Assembly (NCBI RefSeq): GCF_044647545.1
Contig: NZ_CP172818.1
DNA from: Escherichia coli
Lineage (GTDB): Bacteria > Pseudomonadota > Gammaproteobacteria > Enterobacterales > Enterobacteriaceae
Length of the DNA: 64,000 nt
Strand: one strand, 5' to 3'
Position 1 is the first letter of the stretch. Every line of letters starts with the position of its first letter. The translations under genes were made by a program, and so were the position numbers. Positions 1,477 through 41,692 of the stretch are shown in pieces. Below the pieces are notes generated by a model that saw nothing but the letters and a program-made list of their open reading frames with translations, was not told the DNA's origin and ran no database searches.

Positions 1477-1564
1477 TCATTCCAAAAAGTTAAGGACGTG
1501 GCTTGTCAGACGACGGATGAAGCAAGAGACGATCGCCGCAAAGGCGATGCGATAGCAGATTAAC

Positions 1565-1675
1565 TCTTGTTCCCTTCGCAGGTATTAGCCTGATCAGGTT
1601 CCGCGGATCCCGAATAAACGGTCTCAGCCAGTTAAGGCACTCCGACAAGAAATTAGCCCCGCAAACGGGGCGTTG
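1565..1675 (-). ncRNA. TPP (thi-box) riboswitch in the thiC leader
   Basis: Reverse complement contains GGGGCTAAT...CGGAGTGCC...GCTGAGAC...AACCTGATCAGGCTAATACCTGCGAAGGGAAC, with the CTGAGA thi-box hallmark, directly upstream of the thiC start. Confidence 0.7.
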
Positions 1676-6636: not shown

Positions 6637-7062
6637 TTACCAGTGGCCCATACCCATATGACCGCCACCACCGCAGCCGCCGTAGCCCATGCCCATTCCG
6701 GCTCCGCGCGGAATACCCGCTTCAGCCATCGCAATATCTCGTTTCACCCGTAACTCATCTAACGACTGACGCAAATTCTCCATCTCTTTGGCGACCGCGT
6801 TAATTTTGCTGCTATCCGGTGGGTTCGCGGCTAACAGGGCATTGTATTCATAACGCTTCGTCACCAGTTGCTGTTGCAGTGCGCTGCTTTGAGCGTAAAA
6901 GTCATTATGGATTTTCTGCCACGCTGTCTGTTGTTCGCTGGTCAAAGGCGCGGCATTTTGCTGCCACATACCATGTCCGCCGTGAGCAAATGCCGATGTC
7001 GATCCCATCGCCATTGCTGAAAGCGCCATCATTACCAGGGCAATTTTCGTGTTCCGTTTCAT
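6637..7062 (-). CDS. zraP: Zinc-resistance-associated periplasmic protein ZraP
   Basis: 141-aa ORF MKRNTKIALVMMALSAMAMGSTSAFA..., with GGAGG before the ATG at 7062. Gly/Met/His-rich C-terminus. Confidence 0.9.
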   Translation of the reverse strand: MKRNTKIALVMMALSAMAMGSTSAFAHGGHGMWQQNAAPLTSEQQTAWQKIHNDFYAQSSALQQQLVTKRYEYNALLAANPPDSSKINAVAKEMENLRQSLDELRVKRDIAMAEAGIPRGAGMGMGYGGCGGGGHMGMGHW

Positions 7063-7097
7063 GGTTAATCCTCCAGTGGTTGTCTTACTTCGGGTAT

Positions 7098-7113
7098 TGC
7101 ATCTTCCGTGCCA
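7098..7113 (-). promoter_or_regulatory. Sigma-54 promoter of zraP
   Basis: Reverse complement reads TGGCAC-GGAAG-ATGCA, a near-consensus match to TGGCAC-N5-TTGCA, about 35 bp upstream of the zraP start. Confidence 0.7.
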
Positions 7114-7253
7114 ACGGCGAAACGCTGATATGACGGGTAATCTGGCATGATAAACGAGTAAAAATGACTCGCCTGCTGCGGGTAGCGAGTCATTTTTACT
7201 CATTGAAACTTAAGCCTTTGTGTTACAGCGCAGGGTAAGCGCTGATAAAAGAT

Positions 7254-7269
7254 GGCATGATTTCTGCCG
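7254..7269 (+). promoter_or_regulatory. Sigma-54 promoter of zraSR
   Basis: TGGCAT-GATTT-CTGCC about 30 bp upstream of the zraS start; divergent from the zraP promoter. Confidence 0.55.
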
Positions 7270-7299
7270 TCAGAAAGGGATGAGCAGGCAAAGAAGAAG

Positions 7300-8676
7300 A
7301 TGCGTTTTATGCAACGTTCTAAAGATTCCTTAGCTAAATGGTTAAGCGCGATCCTCCCCGTGGTCATTGTTGGGCTGGTGGGGCTGTTTGCGGTGACAGT
7401 GATTCGCGATTATGGGCGCGAGACTGCCGCCGCCAGACAAACGCTGCTGGAAAAAGGCAGTGTACTTATTCGCGCTCTTGAATCCGGCTCGCGCGTCGGT
7501 ATGGGGATGCGCATGCATCATGCGCAGCAGCAGGCCTTACTGGAAGAAATGGCCGGGCAGCCTGGAGTACGTTGGTTTGCGGTCACGGATGAACAAGGAA
7601 CAATCGTGATGCATAGCAACTCCGGCATGGTGGGAAAACAGCTTTATTCCCCGCAGGAAATGCAGCAGTTACATCCGGGAGATGAAGAAGCGTGGCGGCG
7701 GATCGATAGCGCAGACGGCGAGCCTGTTCTGGAAATTTATCGCCAGTTTCAACCGATGTTTGCTGCTGGAATGCACCGGATGCGCCATATGCAGCAATAT
7801 GCCGCGACACCACAAGCAATTTTCATTGCTTTCGACGCCAGTAACATTGTGAGTGCCGAAGATCGTGAGCAGAGAAATACCCTGATTATCCTCTTCGCCC
7901 TGGCGACGGTCTTGCTGGCAAGCGTGTTGTCATTCTTCTGGTATCGTCGCTATCTGCGCTCGCGCCAGTTGTTGCAGGATGAAATGAAGCGCAAAGAGAA
8001 GCTGGTGGCGCTGGGGCATCTTGCGGCAGGTGTTGCCCACGAAATCCGTAACCCACTTTCCTCGATTAAAGGACTGGCGAAATACTTTGCCGAACGCGCG
8101 CCAGCAGGGGGAGAAGCGCATCAACTGGCGCAGGTGATGGCGAAAGAAGCCGACCGTTTAAACCGCGTGGTAAGCGAGTTGCTGGAACTGGTTAAGCCAA
8201 CGCATCTGGCTTTGCAGGCGGTGGATCTCAACACGCTGATTAACCACTCATTACAGCTGGTAAGCCAGGATGCAAACAGCCGGGAGATCCAGTTACGCTT
8301 TACCGCCAACGACACATTACCGGAAATTCAGGCCGATCCGGACAGGCTGACTCAGGTCCTGTTGAATCTCTATCTCAATGCCATTCAGGCTATTGGTCAG
8401 CATGGCGTGATTAGCGTTGTGGCAAATGAAAGCGGAGCGGGCGTGAAAATCAGCGTTACCGACAGCGGTAAGGGAATTGCGGCAGATCAGCTTGAAGCCA
8501 TCTTCACCCCGTACTTCACCACCAAAGCCGAAGGTACCGGACTGGGGCTGGCGGTCGTGCATAATATTGTTGAACAACACGGTGGTACAATTCAGGTCGC
8601 AAGCCAGGAGGGAAAAGGCGCAACGTTCACCCTTTGGCTTCCGGTCAATATTACGCGTAAGGACCCACAAGGATGA
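7300..8676 (+). CDS. zraS: Sensor histidine kinase ZraS
   Basis: 458-aa ORF with N-terminal transmembrane segment, H-box (HEIRNPLSSIKG) and ATPase G-boxes. Confidence 0.9.
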   Translation: MRFMQRSKDSLAKWLSAILPVVIVGLVGLFAVTVIRDYGRETAAARQTLLEKGSVLIRALESGSRVGMGMRMHHAQQQALLEEMAGQPGVRWFAVTDEQGTIVMHSNSGMVGKQLYSPQEMQQLHPGDEEAWRRIDSADGEPVLEIYRQFQPMFAAGMHRMRHMQQYAATPQAIFIAFDASNIVSAEDREQRNTLIILFALATVLLASVLSFFWYRRYLRSRQLLQDEMKRKEKLVALGHLAAGVAHEIRNPLSSIKGLAKYFAERAPAGGEAHQLAQVMAKEADRLNRVVSELLELVKPTHLALQAVDLNTLINHSLQLVSQDANSREIQLRFTANDTLPEIQADPDRLTQVLLNLYLNAIQAIGQHGVISVVANESGAGVKISVTDSGKGIAADQLEAIFTPYFTTKAEGTGLGLAVVHNIVEQHGGTIQVASQEGKGATFTLWLPVNITRKDPQG

Positions 8677-9998
8677 CGCACGATAATATCGATATTCTGG
8701 TGGTGGATGATGACATTAGCCACTGCACTATTTTGCAGGCTTTGCTGCGCGGCTGGGGCTATAACGTGGCGCTTGCGAACAGCGGGCGACAGGCGCTGGA
8801 GCAGGTGCGGGAACAGGTTTTTGATCTTGTGCTTTGCGATGTGCGAATGGCAGAGATGGACGGCATCGCCACGCTCAAAGAGATCAAAGCGTTAAATCCG
8901 GCAATTCCGGTACTGATTATGACCGCGTACTCCAGCGTCGAGACGGCGGTAGAGGCGTTGAAAACCGGGGCGCTGGATTATCTCATCAAGCCGCTGGATT
9001 TCGATAACCTGCAGGCGACGCTGGAAAAGGCGCTCGCACATACGCACAGTGTTGACGCTGAAACGCCTGCGGTGTCTGCCAGCCAGTTCAGTATGGTCGG
9101 TAAAAGCCCGGCGATGCAACACCTGCTCAGTGAAATCGCCCTCGTCGCGCCATCGGAAGCCACGGTGCTGATCCACGGCGATTCCGGCACCGGTAAAGAG
9201 CTGGTCGCCAGGGCGATTCACGCCAGTAGCGCACGTAGCGAAAAACCGCTGGTAACGCTCAACTGCGCGGCGCTCAACGAATCCTTGCTGGAGTCTGAAT
9301 TGTTCGGTCACGAAAAAGGGGCGTTTACCGGGGCCGACAAACGCCGGGAAGGGCGCTTTGTTGAGGCGGACGGCGGCACGTTGTTTCTCGATGAAATTGG
9401 CGATATCTCGCCGATGATGCAGGTGCGTCTGCTACGTGCGATTCAGGAGCGCGAAGTTCAGCGTGTCGGTAGCAACCAGACTATTTCGGTTGATGTCCGG
9501 CTGATTGCGGCGACCCATCGCGATCTTGCCGCAGAGGTGAATGCCGGGCGTTTTCGCCAGGATCTCTACTATCGCCTGAACGTGGTGGCGATTGAAGTAC
9601 CATCGCTGCGTCAGCGGCGGGAAGATATTCCTCTGCTGGCAAACCATTTTCTTCAGCGCTTTGCCGAGCGTAATCGCAAGGCGGTAAAAGGTTTTACGCC
9701 CCAGGCGATGGATCTGCTGATTCACTACGACTGGCCGGGAAATATTCGTGAACTGGAAAACGCGGTGGAACGGGCGGTGGTGCTGCTGACCGGGGAATAT
9801 ATTTCCGAACGCGAGCTGCCGCTGGCGATTGCGAGTACGCCGATCCCGCTGGTACAAAGTCAGGATATTCAGCCGCTGGTGGAAGTCGAAAAAGAGGTGA
9901 TTCTTGCGGCACTGGAGAAAACGGGCGGCAACAAAACCGAAGCCGCCCGTCAGTTAGGGATCACGCGCAAAACGCTCTTGGCAAAACTGTCGCGTTAG
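8673..9998 (+). CDS. zraR: Sigma-54-dependent response regulator ZraR
   Basis: 441-aa ORF with receiver domain, AAA+ sigma-54 activator domain (GESGTGKE, GAFTGA) and C-terminal HTH. Start overlaps the zraS stop. Confidence 0.95.
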
Positions 9999-13501: not shown

Positions 13502-15043
<1,542 letters not shown>

Positions 15044-15128
15044 CCTTAAAGAAGCGTACTTTGAAGTGCTCACACAGATTGTCTGATAGAAAGTGAAAAG
15101 CAAGGCGTCTTGCGAAGCAGACTGATAC

Positions 15129-15204
15129 GTCCCCTTCGTCTAGAGGCCCAGGACACCGCCCTTTCACGGCGGTAACAGGGGTTCGAATCCCCTAGGGGAC
15201 GCCA
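15129..15204 (+). tRNA. gltV: tRNA-Glu (UUC) in the 16S-23S spacer
   Basis: GTCCCCTTCGTCTAGAGGCCCAGGACACCGCCCTTTCACGGCGGTAACAGGGGTTCGAATCCCCTAGGGGACGCCA. Confidence 0.95.
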
Positions 15205-15399
15205 CTTGCTGGTTTGTGAGTGAAAGTCACCTGCCTTAATATCTCAAAACTCATCTTCGGGTGACGTTTGAGATATTTGCTCTTTAAAAATCTGGATCAA
15301 GCTGAAAATTGAAACACTGAATAGTCGAAAGATTATTCGTGAGTCTCTCAAATTTTCGCAACACGATGATGAATCGAAAGAAACATCTTCGGGTTGTGA

Positions 15400-18303
<2,904 letters not shown>

Positions 18304-18395
18304 ACAACGCCGAAGGTGTTTTGGCGGATTGAGAGAAGATTTTCAGCCTGATACAGATTAAATCAGAACGCAGAAGCGGTCTGATAAACAGAATT

Positions 18396-18515
18396 TGCCT
18401 GGCGGCCTTAGCGCGGTGGTCCCACCTGACCCCATGCCGAACTCAGAAGTGAAACGCCGTAGCGCCGATGGTAGTGTGGGGTCTCCCCATGCGAGAGTAG
18501 GGAACTGCCAGGCAT
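18396..18515 (+). rRNA. rrfE: 5S ribosomal RNA
   Basis: TGCCTGGCGGCCTTAGCGCGGTGGTCCCACCTGACCCCATGCCGAACTCAGAAGTGAAACGCCGTAGCGCCGATGGTAGTGTGGGGTCTCCCCATGCGAGAGTAGGGAACTGCCAGGCAT; 120 nt. Confidence 0.95.
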
Positions 18516-39189: not shown

Positions 39190-39446
39190 TTTTCAGCCTT
39201 GGCACAAGGGAAGAGCGGAAGACGGGTGGGCGCAGAGCGATACTTCGCTACTATTTTCACCCAGAAGTGCTCCACCACTTGCGAAACGCCCGACTGCGAA
39301 CGCTTCTGGTGACAACCCAGGGGATTCAGCCCCTGTAGCCGATGATGAACGTGGCCAGCCGTTCAATCACCTCGGCGATGCACCCCCTCAGGTGTTATCA
39401 CAGGACTGGCTCCTCCAACACCGTTACTTGGGCAACGCGCCTCTTC
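39190..39446 (-). ncRNA. Lysine riboswitch (L-box) in the lysC leader
   Basis: Reverse complement contains GAAGAGGCGCGTTGCCC...GGAGGAGCC...GGGGCTGAATCCCCTGGGTTGTCACCAGAAGCG...GGTGGAGCACTTCTGGGTG, matching L-box conserved elements. Confidence 0.7.
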
Positions 39447-39689
39447 TGGCCTGCGCTAGCGCAGGTAGTACATTTATAAATAAAGGGTGAGCGGGGCGGT
39501 TGTCAACGATGGGGTCATGCGGATTTTTCATCCACTCCTGGCGGTCAGTAGTTCAGCTAATAAATGCTTCGCTGCGCTAAGGGTTTACACTCAACATTAC
39601 GCTAACGGCACTAAAACCATCACATTTTTCTGTGACTGGCGCTACAATCTTCCAAAGTCACAATTCTCAAAATCAGAAGAGTATTGCTA

Positions 39690-41339: not shown

Positions 41340-41356
41340 TTAAAAACCTTAATAAC

Positions 41357-41386
41357 AATGCCGACTATAAGTCGGCATTGTTTTAT
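41357..41386 (+). terminator. Rho-independent terminator after pgi
   Basis: CAATGCCGAC-TATAA-GTCGGCATTG hairpin followed by TTTTA. Confidence 0.8.
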
Positions 41387-41692
41387 CAGATAAATCCTCT
41401 TGTCTGTTATTTAACGAAAATCATACCGTGAGGTTAATCCTAAAATAGATTTTTAATCGTGATTGATTTCGGAAAATACGCAGATTAATTACTTTTATTT
41501 TTATTTTAAGCTTATGATTTTTAATATTATTTATATATAAGTTGAAGCTTATATTTGATATTCATTCCAATTATCCTAAAACCCCATCGCTAATTCCCTG
41601 CGCCGTAATTCGCATGCTTTAGTTGTGTATACTCGATCCCGCCCGAAATGTTTTTGGGTAAATCTCCATTCATTCAATGAAGGGAAATTGTT

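What the first reader, a model, noticed from the sequence alone, without database searches (positions are those of the whole stretch)
7063..7299. Divergent sigma-54 promoters between zraP and zraSR
Seen in sequence: a near-consensus sigma-54 element on the minus strand (TGGCAC-N5-ATGCA, 7098–7113) for zraP and a weaker one on the plus strand (TGGCAT-N5-CTGC, 7254–7269) for zraSR. The ~140 bp between them is where the ZraR enhancer sites would lie. This is a known arrangement and is reported for completeness.
Basis: partly seen in the sequence, partly recalled or inferred. Interest (0 to 1): 0.2.

Follow-up and report, generated by a model that had tools for sequence, protein, structure and literature searches.

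The report
Known zraP–zraSR sigma-54 control region
This is the well-known E. coli control region in which one shared ZraR enhancer drives two back-to-back sigma-54 promoters, for zraP and for zraSR; it is ordinary, apart from a rare single-base change in the zraS promoter.

Summary
The window is E. coli. The 237-bp gap between zraP (6637-7062, minus) and zraS (7300-8676, plus) holds two sigma-54 -24/-12 elements.

- **zraP element:** TTGGCACGGAAGATGCA at 7098-7114 on the minus strand.
- **zraS element:** ATGGCATGATTTCTGCC at 7252-7268 on the plus strand.
- **Scoring:** With a matrix built from 40 other ChIP-verified E. coli sigma-54 sites, these two rank 1 and 2 of 127,968 positions in the window.
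- **Published binding:** The K-12 sequences, identical for zraP and one base different for zraS, are sigma-54 ChIP-seq peaks OS38 and OS39 of Bonocora 2015.
- **Enhancer:** Between the promoters lie two 17-bp palindromic sites (7155-7171 and 7186-7202) with centres 31 bp apart.
- **Conservation:** Across 46 Enterobacteriaceae intergenic regions, only these four elements are conserved.

"Weaker" for the zraS element holds for occupancy and induction, but not for matrix score or conservation.

The only unusual details are minor. One is a rare T-to-C change at -11 of the zraS promoter (82 complete E. coli genomes). Another is an Escherichia-specific spacer that is one helical turn shorter. In passing, I also saw a dimorphic ZraS sensor domain.

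The arrangement is already known, so interest is low.

The parts
6637..7062 (-). zraP coding sequence (141 aa periplasmic ZraP)
   Evidence: ORF. NCBIfam equivalog NF008584 scores 274 bits against a cut-off of 200. Annotated as zraP in the 100%-identical genome.
7069..7074 (-). zraP Shine-Dalgarno sequence GGAGGA, 6 nt before the ATG
   Evidence: Read directly from the sequence.
7087..7087 (-). Predicted zraP transcription start (12 nt after the C of the -12 GC; 25-nt leader)
   Evidence: Inferred from the motif position using the convention of PMC4591121 (start 19 bp downstream of the motif centre, 'Distance' 25). Not mapped here.
7098..7114 (-). zraP sigma-54 promoter TTGGCACGGAAGATGCA (GG at 7111-7112, GC at 7099-7100)
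   Evidence: Rank 1 of 127,968 positions at 15.3 bits. Identical to K-12 ChIP-seq site OS38, fold-above-threshold score (FAT) 39. 92% identity to the window in 40 non-Escherichia species.
7155..7171 (.). ZraR enhancer site 1, CGAGTAAAAATGACTCG (a 5-N7-5 palindrome centred at 7163). It lies at -76 from the zraP start and -116 from the zraS start.
   Evidence: 91% identity to the window in non-Escherichia species over 7154-7172. ZraR binding to this spacer is published, but no base-level footprint was available to me.
7186..7202 (.). ZraR enhancer site 2, CGAGTCATTTTTACTCA (inverted copy of site 1, centred at 7194). It lies at -107 from the zraP start and -85 from the zraS start.
   Evidence: 82% identity to the window over 7185-7203. 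The centre-to-centre distance from site 1 is 31-33 bp in all 46 sequences.
7252..7268 (+). zraS sigma-54 promoter ATGGCATGATTTCTGCC (GG at 7254-7255, GC at 7266-7267). The C at 7268 (-11) is a rare variant.
   Evidence: Rank 2 of 127,968 positions at 14.5 bits. K-12 site OS39, ATGGCATGATTTCTGCT, has FAT 9. 90% identity to the window in non-Escherichia species.
7279..7279 (+). Predicted zraSR transcription start (21-nt leader to the ATG at 7300)
   Evidence: Inferred from the motif position ('Distance' 21 in PMC4591121). Not mapped here.
7300..8676 (+). zraS coding sequence (458 aa sensor kinase)
   Evidence: ORF. NCBIfam equivalog NF007688 scores 886 bits against a cut-off of 479.
8673..9998 (+). 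zraR coding sequence (441 aa sigma-54 activator; receiver, AAA+ with GAFTGA, and HTH_8 domains)
   Evidence: ORF (GAFTGA is visible in the translation). NCBIfam equivalog NF007689 scores 994 bits against a cut-off of 760. Pfam domains PF00072, PF00158 and PF02954.

Best explanation
The region 7063-7299 is the E. coli zraP-zraSR regulatory region. One central ZraR enhancer is flanked by two divergent sigma-54 (-24/-12) promoters.

**What the sequence shows**
- Both promoter motifs have the correct GG-N10-GC register.
- Each points at its own gene, with a predicted leader of 25 nt (zraP) and 21 nt (zraS).
- Two palindromic sites sit between them with centres 31 bp apart, about three helical turns, so they lie on the same face of the helix.
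- The sites are centred 76 and 107 bp upstream of the predicted zraP start, and 85 and 116 bp upstream of the predicted zraS start.

**What published K-12 and Salmonella work shows on the same sequence**
- Sigma-54 holoenzyme occupies both promoters as a closed complex.
- ZraR binds this spacer.
- zraP and zraSR need ZraR and sigma-54 for induction by zinc or envelope stress.

**What I infer, by analogy with NtrC-type activators**
- ZraS phosphorylates ZraR.
- ZraR dimers on the two sites assemble into an active AAA+ ring.
- The DNA loops, and ATP hydrolysis opens either closed complex.
- The result is ZraP, a periplasmic feedback modulator, together with positive autoregulation of zraSR.
For: - **Gene identities:**
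- **Matrix scoring:** the two sites rank 1 and 2 in the window with a matrix that leaves them out.
- **Identity to K-12:** 234 of 237 positions.
- **Sigma-54 ChIP-seq peaks** at these motifs in K-12: FAT 39 and 9 (PMC4591121).
- **RpoN-holoenzyme gSELEX peak** in the zraP/zraS spacer (PMC8743547).
- **Listing as known promoters:** both are listed among known sigma-54 promoters, at -51 to -34 (zraP) and -47 to -30 (zraS) from the start codons. These offsets match the window (PMC2831329).
- **Salmonella LT2:** a ChIP-chip site at each promoter, and 16-fold (zraP) and 3.7-fold (zraSR) sigma-54-dependent induction (PMC3844500).
- **ZraR binding to the spacer:** gSELEX, with 81 of 86 clones (PMC8249747), and ChIP-exo. 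Deleting zraR lowers zraS expression by log2 3.18 under zinc (PMC7657598).
- **Phylogenetic footprint:** in 46 intergenic regions from about 10 genera, the two promoters and the two enhancer sites keep 82-92% identity to the window, while the DNA between them keeps 26-46%.
- **Conserved geometry:** site 1 to site 2 is 31-33 bp, and site 2 to the zraS -12 element is 71-73 bp. The zraP -12 element to site 1 is 64 bp in Escherichia and 74-77 bp elsewhere, a difference of one helical turn.
- **No competing signals:** no sigma-70-like promoter or terminator was found in 6900-7450.
Against: - **No start-site data.** I could not reach any transcription start data. The primary paper (Leonhartsberger 2001) is not held. 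EcoCyc listed both promoters as 'predicted' in 2015, according to PMC4591121.
- **Enhancer assignment is indirect.** The base-level assignment of the two palindromes as ZraR sites rests on conservation and on spacer-level binding data, not on a footprint I could read. A Salmonella review lists the ZraR enhancer sequence as 'not known'.
- **The zraS promoter carries a variant.** This strain has C instead of the otherwise invariant T at -11, so its strength may differ from K-12.
- **Weak single-site statistics.** Each matrix score alone is not beyond chance at the 64-kb scale (0.7 and 1.6 expected).
Confidence: 0.95

Rival explanations
1. Only the zraP promoter is a working sigma-54 promoter in this strain. 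On this view the plus-strand element binds sigma-54 weakly or unproductively, because the T-to-C change at -11 damages it, and zraSR is expressed mainly from some other weak constitutive promoter.
For: - C at 7268 replaces a T that is present in 45 of 46 Enterobacteriaceae sequences.
- The change lowers the matrix score from 17.75 to 14.48 bits.
- Even in K-12 the zraS site has lower occupancy than zraP (FAT 9 against 39).
- Induction in Salmonella is only 3.7-fold.
- Any positively autoregulated two-component system needs some basal expression.
Against: - 14.48 bits is still above 10 of the 40 ChIP-verified training sites and is rank 2 in the window.
- The critical GG and GC dinucleotides and their spacing are intact.
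- Verified sites with C after the GC exist, for example xdhA TTGCC and the site listed for gpr, TTGCC with FAT 61.
- No sigma-70-like promoter was found.
- The variant is carried by 82 complete genomes, so it is not obviously deleterious.
Confidence: 0.1
2. The two motifs are chance matches to a short degenerate consensus, and the region is regulated in some other way.
For: - The consensus pattern with up to 2 mismatches is not enriched in the window (36 found against 40.7 expected).
- Single-site matrix scores at this level are expected about once per 64 kb.
Against: - Both top-ranked sites lie in one 237-bp gap, each oriented towards its own gene.
- Both are near-invariant across about 10 genera, while the flanking DNA is not.
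- A sigma-54 activator gene lies directly downstream.
- ChIP-seq, ChIP-chip and gSELEX data exist for the same sequences.
Confidence: 0.01
3. The intergenic region encodes the 42-aa protein that NCBI's PGAP annotation pipeline calls at 7065-7193 on the minus strand, and the conserved blocks reflect coding constraint.
For: It is annotated as hypothetical protein WP_001298656.1 in the 100%-identical genome, and the ORF is listed.
Against: - No family match in NCBIfam or Pfam.
- Conservation is confined to the promoter and palindrome blocks. The interior (7115-7153) keeps only 33% identity to the window.
- Other genera differ there by an 11-bp length change, which breaks the reading frame.
- The ORF would start inside enhancer site 2 and run across the zraP promoter.
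Confidence: 0.02

Closest known systems
E. coli K-12 zraP-zraSR (hydHG) intergenic region: sigma-54 sites OS38 and OS39 of Bonocora et al. 2015, with ZraR regulation first described by Leonhartsberger et al. 2001
   Same: - Same genes and the same 237-bp length, with 234 of 237 bases identical.
- The zraP motif and both palindromes are identical.
- The offsets from the start codons are the same: -51 to -34 for zraP and -47 to -30 for zraS.
   Different: - Three single-base differences: 7117-7118 are GC where K-12 has AT, in a non-conserved spacer, and 7268 is C where K-12 has T, at -11 of the zraS promoter.
- The downstream ZraS periplasmic domain is a different allele.
Salmonella Typhimurium STM4172 (zraP) / STM4173-74 (hydHG) divergent sigma-54 promoters (Samuels et al. 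2013, PMC3844500)
   Same: - The zraP motif TGGCACGGAAGATGCA is identical.
- The zraS motif differs at one spacer base (TGGCATGATCTCTGCT).
- Both are bound by sigma-54 holoenzyme and induced by an active enhancer-binding protein.
- Both Salmonella subspecies sampled have the same double palindrome.
   Different: - The spacer between the zraP promoter and enhancer site 1 is 11 bp longer in Salmonella (75 against 64 bp).
- The rest of the intergenic DNA is diverged.
E. coli hycA-hypA divergent sigma-54 promoters served by the activator FhlA (OS27 and OS28 in PMC4591121)
   Same: It has the same architecture: two back-to-back -24/-12 promoters in one intergenic region under one enhancer-binding protein. 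The motif centres are 128 bp apart, against 154 bp here.
   Different: - The activator is different (FhlA, which senses formate and is not a two-component response regulator).
- The enhancer sequence is different (CATTTCGTACGAAATG).
NtrC enhancer at glnAp2 (from my own knowledge of the NtrC literature; not tested here)
   Same: Two dimer-binding palindromes about three helical turns apart, roughly 100 bp upstream of a sigma-54 promoter, which nucleate an active AAA+ oligomer that contacts the closed complex by DNA looping.
   Different: - The glnAp2 enhancer serves one promoter, whereas this one sits between two.
- The recognition sequence is different.

Membership tests
Sigma-54 (RpoN) -24/-12 promoter | GG and GC dinucleotides in the TGGCAC-N5-TTGCW register (10 bp between GG and GC) | tested here: met
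   zraP: TGGCAC-GGAAG-ATGCA at 7098-7113 on the minus strand. zraS: TGGCAT-GATTT-CTGCC at 7253-7268 on the plus strand.
Sigma-54 (RpoN) -24/-12 promoter | A matrix score within the range of experimentally bound sites | tested here: met
   The sites score 15.3 and 14.5 bits. The 40 training sites range from 9.1 to 21.8 bits with a median of 15.9. The two sites rank 1 and 2 of 127,968 positions.
Sigma-54 (RpoN) -24/-12 promoter | Intergenic position, oriented towards a gene, with a short leader | tested here: met
   The predicted starts at 7087 and 7279 give leaders of 25 and 21 nt, the same as the 'Distance' column for K-12.
Sigma-54 (RpoN) -24/-12 promoter | A cognate enhancer-binding protein with a sigma-54 interaction (AAA+, GAFTGA) domain | tested here: met
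   ZraR (8673-9998) matches PF00158 at E = 7.9e-74, has GAFTGA in its translation, and matches NCBIfam ZraR at 994 bits.
Sigma-54 (RpoN) -24/-12 promoter | An upstream activating sequence about 70-150 bp from the promoter | tested here: met
   Two conserved palindromes are centred at -76 and -107 (zraP) and at -85 and -116 (zraS).
Sigma-54 (RpoN) -24/-12 promoter | Sigma-54 occupancy in vivo and RpoN-dependent transcription | not testable with these tools
   This needs an experiment. It has been published for the identical (zraP) or one-base-different (zraS) K-12 sequences and for Salmonella.
Sigma-54 (RpoN) -24/-12 promoter | A mapped transcription start about 12 nt downstream of the GC | not tested
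   I could reach no start-site data. The primary paper is not held, and EcoCyc's status was 'predicted' according to PMC4591121.
zraP-zraSR regulatory region of Enterobacteriaceae | Divergent zraP and zraSR genes flank the region | tested here: met
   All three proteins match their NCBIfam equivalogs above the cut-offs. In all 48 orthologous loci (L003-L050), zraP matches upstream of zraS on the opposite strand.
zraP-zraSR regulatory region of Enterobacteriaceae | Sequence orthology to the characterised K-12 region | tested here: met
   234 of 237 bases are identical. The region is present in 5,420 of 5,426 complete E. coli genomes.

The most novel reading that the evidence does not exclude
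In this lineage the zraS promoter has C instead of T at -11 (7268). That position is T in K-12 and in all 45 other Enterobacteriaceae sequences examined, and the C allele occurs in only 82 of 5,426 complete E. coli genomes. By their names, several of those strains belong to sequence type ST648. The change might measurably weaken or alter sigma-54 closed-complex behaviour at the -12/-11 fork junction, and so retune the positive autoregulation of ZraSR. That would be a natural promoter variant of an envelope-stress system in a clinically relevant clone.
Probability: 0.2. Interest if true: 0.3.

Novelty: already known. Interest (0 to 1): 0.1.

Why it matters
This has little importance as a discovery. 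The arrangement has been textbook-level knowledge for E. coli and Salmonella since 2001, and genome-wide sigma-54 and ZraR binding maps have reconfirmed it.

It does have value as a positive control. A matrix built from ChIP-verified sites picks out exactly the two true promoters in 64 kb, and cross-genus footprinting recovers the full anatomy without prior knowledge: two promoters and a two-site enhancer with helical phasing preserved.

The small new details could interest people who use PzraP as a zinc biosensor or who study Zra envelope-stress signalling:
- the rare -11 variant in the zraS promoter;
- the spacer that is one helical turn shorter in Escherichia;
- the dimorphic ZraS sensor domain.

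Tried and rejected
- **Plain consensus search.** TGGCACNNNNNTTGCW at up to 2 mismatches was uninformative: 36 matches against 40.7 expected, and it misses the zraS element. I replaced it with a matrix built from published sites.
- **Sigma-70 promoter and terminator scan of 6900-7450.** Nothing was found, so there is no evidence for an alternative promoter. The scan is a strict consensus test, however.
- **The primary paper.** I tried to read Leonhartsberger 2001 (PMID 11243806) for start sites and the footprint, but it is not held. Three papers found by searching for ZraR binding-site descriptions (PMC4279683, PMC8772777, PMC2831303) held nothing relevant.
- **A second TGGCATGAT at 7143-7151 as a possible third sigma-54 site.** Rejected. 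It scores 6.4 bits, below every training site, has no GC at -12, and is not conserved even in E. albertii.
- **The 8-nt inverted repeat 7099-7106 / 7296-7303.** I treated it as a chance match.
- **An IHF site between the enhancer and the promoters.** I looked by eye against WATCAANNNNTTR and saw no convincing match. I ran no formal scan.
- **The PGAP 42-aa ORF at 7065-7193.** Rejected as a gene.
- **The sigma-54-like 17-mer inside plsB (60196-60212).** I treated it as a chance match. It is not in the high-stringency tables of PMC4591121.

Full report
**What is there**

The window is Escherichia coli. The stretch 6637-7400 is 100% identical to strain FDAARGOS_497 and is present in 5,420 of 5,426 complete E. 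coli genomes.

The finding lies in the 237-bp gap between zraP (6637-7062, minus strand) and zraS (7300-8676, plus strand), which is followed by zraR (8673-9998). All three proteins match their NCBIfam equivalog models well above the curated cut-offs. ZraR has the receiver, sigma-54-interaction (AAA+, with GAFTGA) and HTH_8 domains expected of an NtrC-type enhancer-binding protein.

**Checking the observation**

The plus-strand element TGGCAT-GATTT-CTGC is real but lies at 7253-7267, one base to the left of the stated coordinates. The two 17-mers are 137 bp apart.

A plain consensus search does not separate these sites from noise. It gives 36 matches at up to 2 mismatches against 40.7 expected, and the plus-strand element is not among them.

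I therefore built a log-odds matrix from the 40 other 'intergenic sense' sigma-54 ChIP-seq motifs in Table 1 of Bonocora et al. 2015 (PMC4591121), leaving out zraP and zraS. I scored every position of the window on both strands with it.
- The two sites rank first (15.3 bits) and second (14.5 bits) of 127,968 positions.
- Either score alone is expected about 0.7 or 1.6 times in 64 kb of random sequence.
- Having both in one 237-bp gap, each pointing at its own gene 30-51 nt from the start codon, has a chance of roughly 1e-6. This is my estimate from those rates.

**The rest of the anatomy**

Between the promoters is a long inverted repeat, 7153-7172 and 7185-7204, with 20-nt arms that are 95% complementary. 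In 300 dinucleotide shuffles of the region, the longest such arms averaged 8.7 nt and never exceeded 14.

Each arm is itself a short palindrome around an asymmetric A/T core:
- Site 1 is CGAGT-AAAAATG-ACTCG at 7155-7171.
- Site 2 is its inverted copy, CGAGT-CATTTTT-ACTCA, at 7186-7202.

These are the only two matches to that 17-mer in the window at up to 3 mismatches, against 0.21 expected. Their centres, 7163 and 7194, are 31 bp apart. That is about three helical turns, the layout expected for two activator dimers on one face of the DNA.

I placed the starts using the published convention, 19 bp downstream of the motif centre.
- The predicted starts are 7087 (minus strand) and 7279 (plus strand), giving leaders of 25 and 21 nt. 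These equal the 'Distance' values tabulated for K-12.
- The enhancer sites then lie at -76 and -107 for zraP, and at -85 and -116 for zraS.
- zraP has a strong GGAGGA ribosome-binding site at 7069-7074.
- No sigma-70-like promoter or intrinsic terminator is detectable in 6900-7450.

**Evidence from related sequences**

A scan of one genome per bacterial species with ZraS as query returned 48 orthologous loci. They come from Escherichia, Citrobacter, Salmonella, Kosakonia, Trabulsiella, Kluyvera, Klebsiella, Phytobacter, Pluralibacter and Entomohabitans. In all 48, zraP matches upstream of zraS on the opposite strand.

I aligned 46 intergenic regions, the window plus 45 of these loci. The table gives identity to the window among the 40 non-Escherichia species.

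| Segment (window coordinates) | Identity to the window |
|---|---|
| zraP promoter motif (7098-7114) | 92% |
| Enhancer site 1 (7154-7172) | 91% |
| Enhancer site 2 (7185-7203) | 82% |
| zraS promoter motif (7252-7268) | 90% |
| Three spacers between these blocks | 26-46% |

So only four islands are conserved: the two promoters and the two enhancer sites.

The geometry is conserved as well.
- Site 1 to site 2 is 31-33 bp in every species.
- Site 2 to the zraS -12 element is 71-73 bp in every species apart from the Pluralibacter locus, where both promoter motifs are poorly matched.
- The zraP -12 element to site 1 is 64 bp in Escherichia (63 in E. albertii) and 74-77 bp in the other genera, apart from that same Pluralibacter locus.

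The Escherichia spacer is therefore about 11 bp, one helical turn, shorter than elsewhere, which preserves rotational phasing.

**Evidence from the literature**

The region differs from E. coli K-12 at only 3 of 237 positions.
- In K-12 both motifs are sigma-54 ChIP-seq peaks: OS38 (zraP) with a fold-above-threshold score (FAT) of 39, and OS39 (zraS) with FAT 9.
- The spacer is a strong RpoN-holoenzyme gSELEX peak (PMC8743547).
- Both promoters are listed among known sigma-54 promoters at offsets that match the window exactly (PMC2831329).
- ZraR binds this spacer as its single high-affinity genomic target, with 81 of 86 gSELEX clones (PMC8249747).
- ZraR ChIP-exo peaks lie upstream of zraP and zraSR, and deleting zraR lowers zraS expression by log2 3.18 under zinc (PMC7657598).
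- In Salmonella LT2 both promoters are bound by sigma-54 holoenzyme. With a constitutively active enhancer-binding protein, zraP is induced 16-fold and zraSR 3.7-fold (PMC3844500).
- A review states plainly that ZraR controls divergent sigma-54 promoters for zraSR and zraP (PMC4987338).

**Mechanism**

Three things are shown: the two promoters, the activator gene, and the conserved two-site enhancer with its phasing.

Three more are published for the same sequence in K-12 or Salmonella: sigma-54 occupancy, ZraR binding to the spacer, and ZraR-, RpoN- and zinc-dependent expression.

The rest I infer from the NtrC paradigm. Phosphorylated ZraR dimers on the two sites assemble an AAA+ ring. The DNA loops, and ATP hydrolysis opens the closed complex at either promoter. 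This gives ZraP production together with positive autoregulation of zraSR.

**Caveats**

- I could not reach any mapped transcription start. The primary paper is not held, and EcoCyc's status was 'predicted' in 2015.
- The base-level assignment of the palindromes as ZraR sites rests on conservation and on spacer-level binding data. The Salmonella review lists the ZraR enhancer sequence as 'not known'.

**On the word 'weaker'**

That holds for occupancy and induction, but not for sequence quality.
- The K-12 zraS motif scores higher than the zraP motif in my matrix (17.75 against 15.32 bits).
- It also scores higher in the Salmonella matrix (20.1 against 17.4).
- It is as conserved as the zraP motif.

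**The one thing particular to this window**

Position 7268, at -11 immediately after the -12 GC of the zraS promoter, is C.
- It is T in K-12 and in all 45 other aligned Enterobacteriaceae sequences.
- The change lowers the matrix score by 3.3 bits.
- The exact 61-mer carrying C occurs in 82 complete E. coli genomes, several of them named as ST648 strains. The K-12 version carrying T occurs in 4,251.
- Verified sigma-54 sites with C at this position do exist, such as xdhA and the site listed for gpr. The effect may therefore be small, and it is untested.

**Verdict**

The arrangement is already known, and interest is low.

Noticed in passing
window 7268: There is a C at -11 of the zraS sigma-54 promoter, where K-12 and all 45 other Enterobacteriaceae sequences have T. 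The exact C-allele 61-mer is in 82 complete E. coli genomes, several named as ST648 strains, against 4,251 for the T allele. The matrix score drops by 3.3 bits.
   Followed up: partly
window 7115-7153 (compared with loci L007-L049): The spacer between the zraP -12 element and enhancer site 1 is 64 bp in Escherichia (63 in E. albertii) and 74-77 bp in nearly all 40 other species. That is about one helical turn shorter. The zraS-side spacing of 71-73 bp is the same in nearly all species.
   Followed up: partly
window ~7400-7920 (ZraS residues ~35-205, periplasmic domain): The ZraS sensor domain has two sharply different alleles in E. coli. Nucleotide identity to K-12 falls to 49-76% here, while the flanks are 98-100% identical. 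The window-type allele (at least 95% identity) is in 4,183 genomes and the K-12-type allele (60-80% identity) is in 1,236. The proteins are 85% identical overall, at 458 against 465 aa.
   Followed up: partly
window 7065-7193 (-): NCBI's PGAP pipeline annotates a 42-aa 'hypothetical protein' (WP_001298656.1) here in some genomes. It lies across the zraP promoter and the ZraR enhancer, has no family match, and its frame is not preserved in other genera. It is very likely a spurious call.
   Followed up: yes
window 7120-7157 vs 7237-7261: There is a partial direct repeat, AA(A/G)CGCTGATA ... TGGCATGAT. A second copy of the zraS -24 half-motif (TGGCATGAT, 7143-7151) sits between the zraP promoter and the enhancer. 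It scores only 6.4 bits, has no -12 GC, and is absent from E. albertii. It is possibly a remnant of a small duplication.
   Followed up: partly
window 7216-7238: A semi-conserved patch (TTTGTG ... CAGGGTTA, identical in about 70% or more of sequences) lies between enhancer site 2 and the zraS promoter, about -40 to -63 from the predicted zraS start. It is unexplained. I saw no clear IHF consensus by eye. The LysR-type regulator YhjC is reported to bind Salmonella zraP 5' DNA at micromolar concentrations.
   Followed up: no
window 60196-60212 (-): A sigma-54-like 17-mer, CTGGCACATGACTTGCC (14.2 bits, rank 4 in the window), lies inside plsB in the sense orientation. It is not among the high-stringency ChIP-seq sites of PMC4591121 and is consistent with chance.
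   Followed up: partly
window 6637-59900 vs NZ_CP033850.1 and NZ_CP042896.1: The two genomes that match the zraP region at 100% are not collinear with the window. They carry about 37.8 kb and about 21 kb of extra DNA between zraP/zraS and plsB, judging from the hit coordinates.
   Followed up: no
window 1554-1654, 13502-18513, 39257-39453, 41347-41496, 49022-49092, 53251-53321: The Rfam hits are the ones expected for this E. coli region: a TPP riboswitch, a complete rRNA operon with a spacer tRNA and StyR-44, a lysine riboswitch, STnc430, and two naRNA4 repeats.
   Followed up: no
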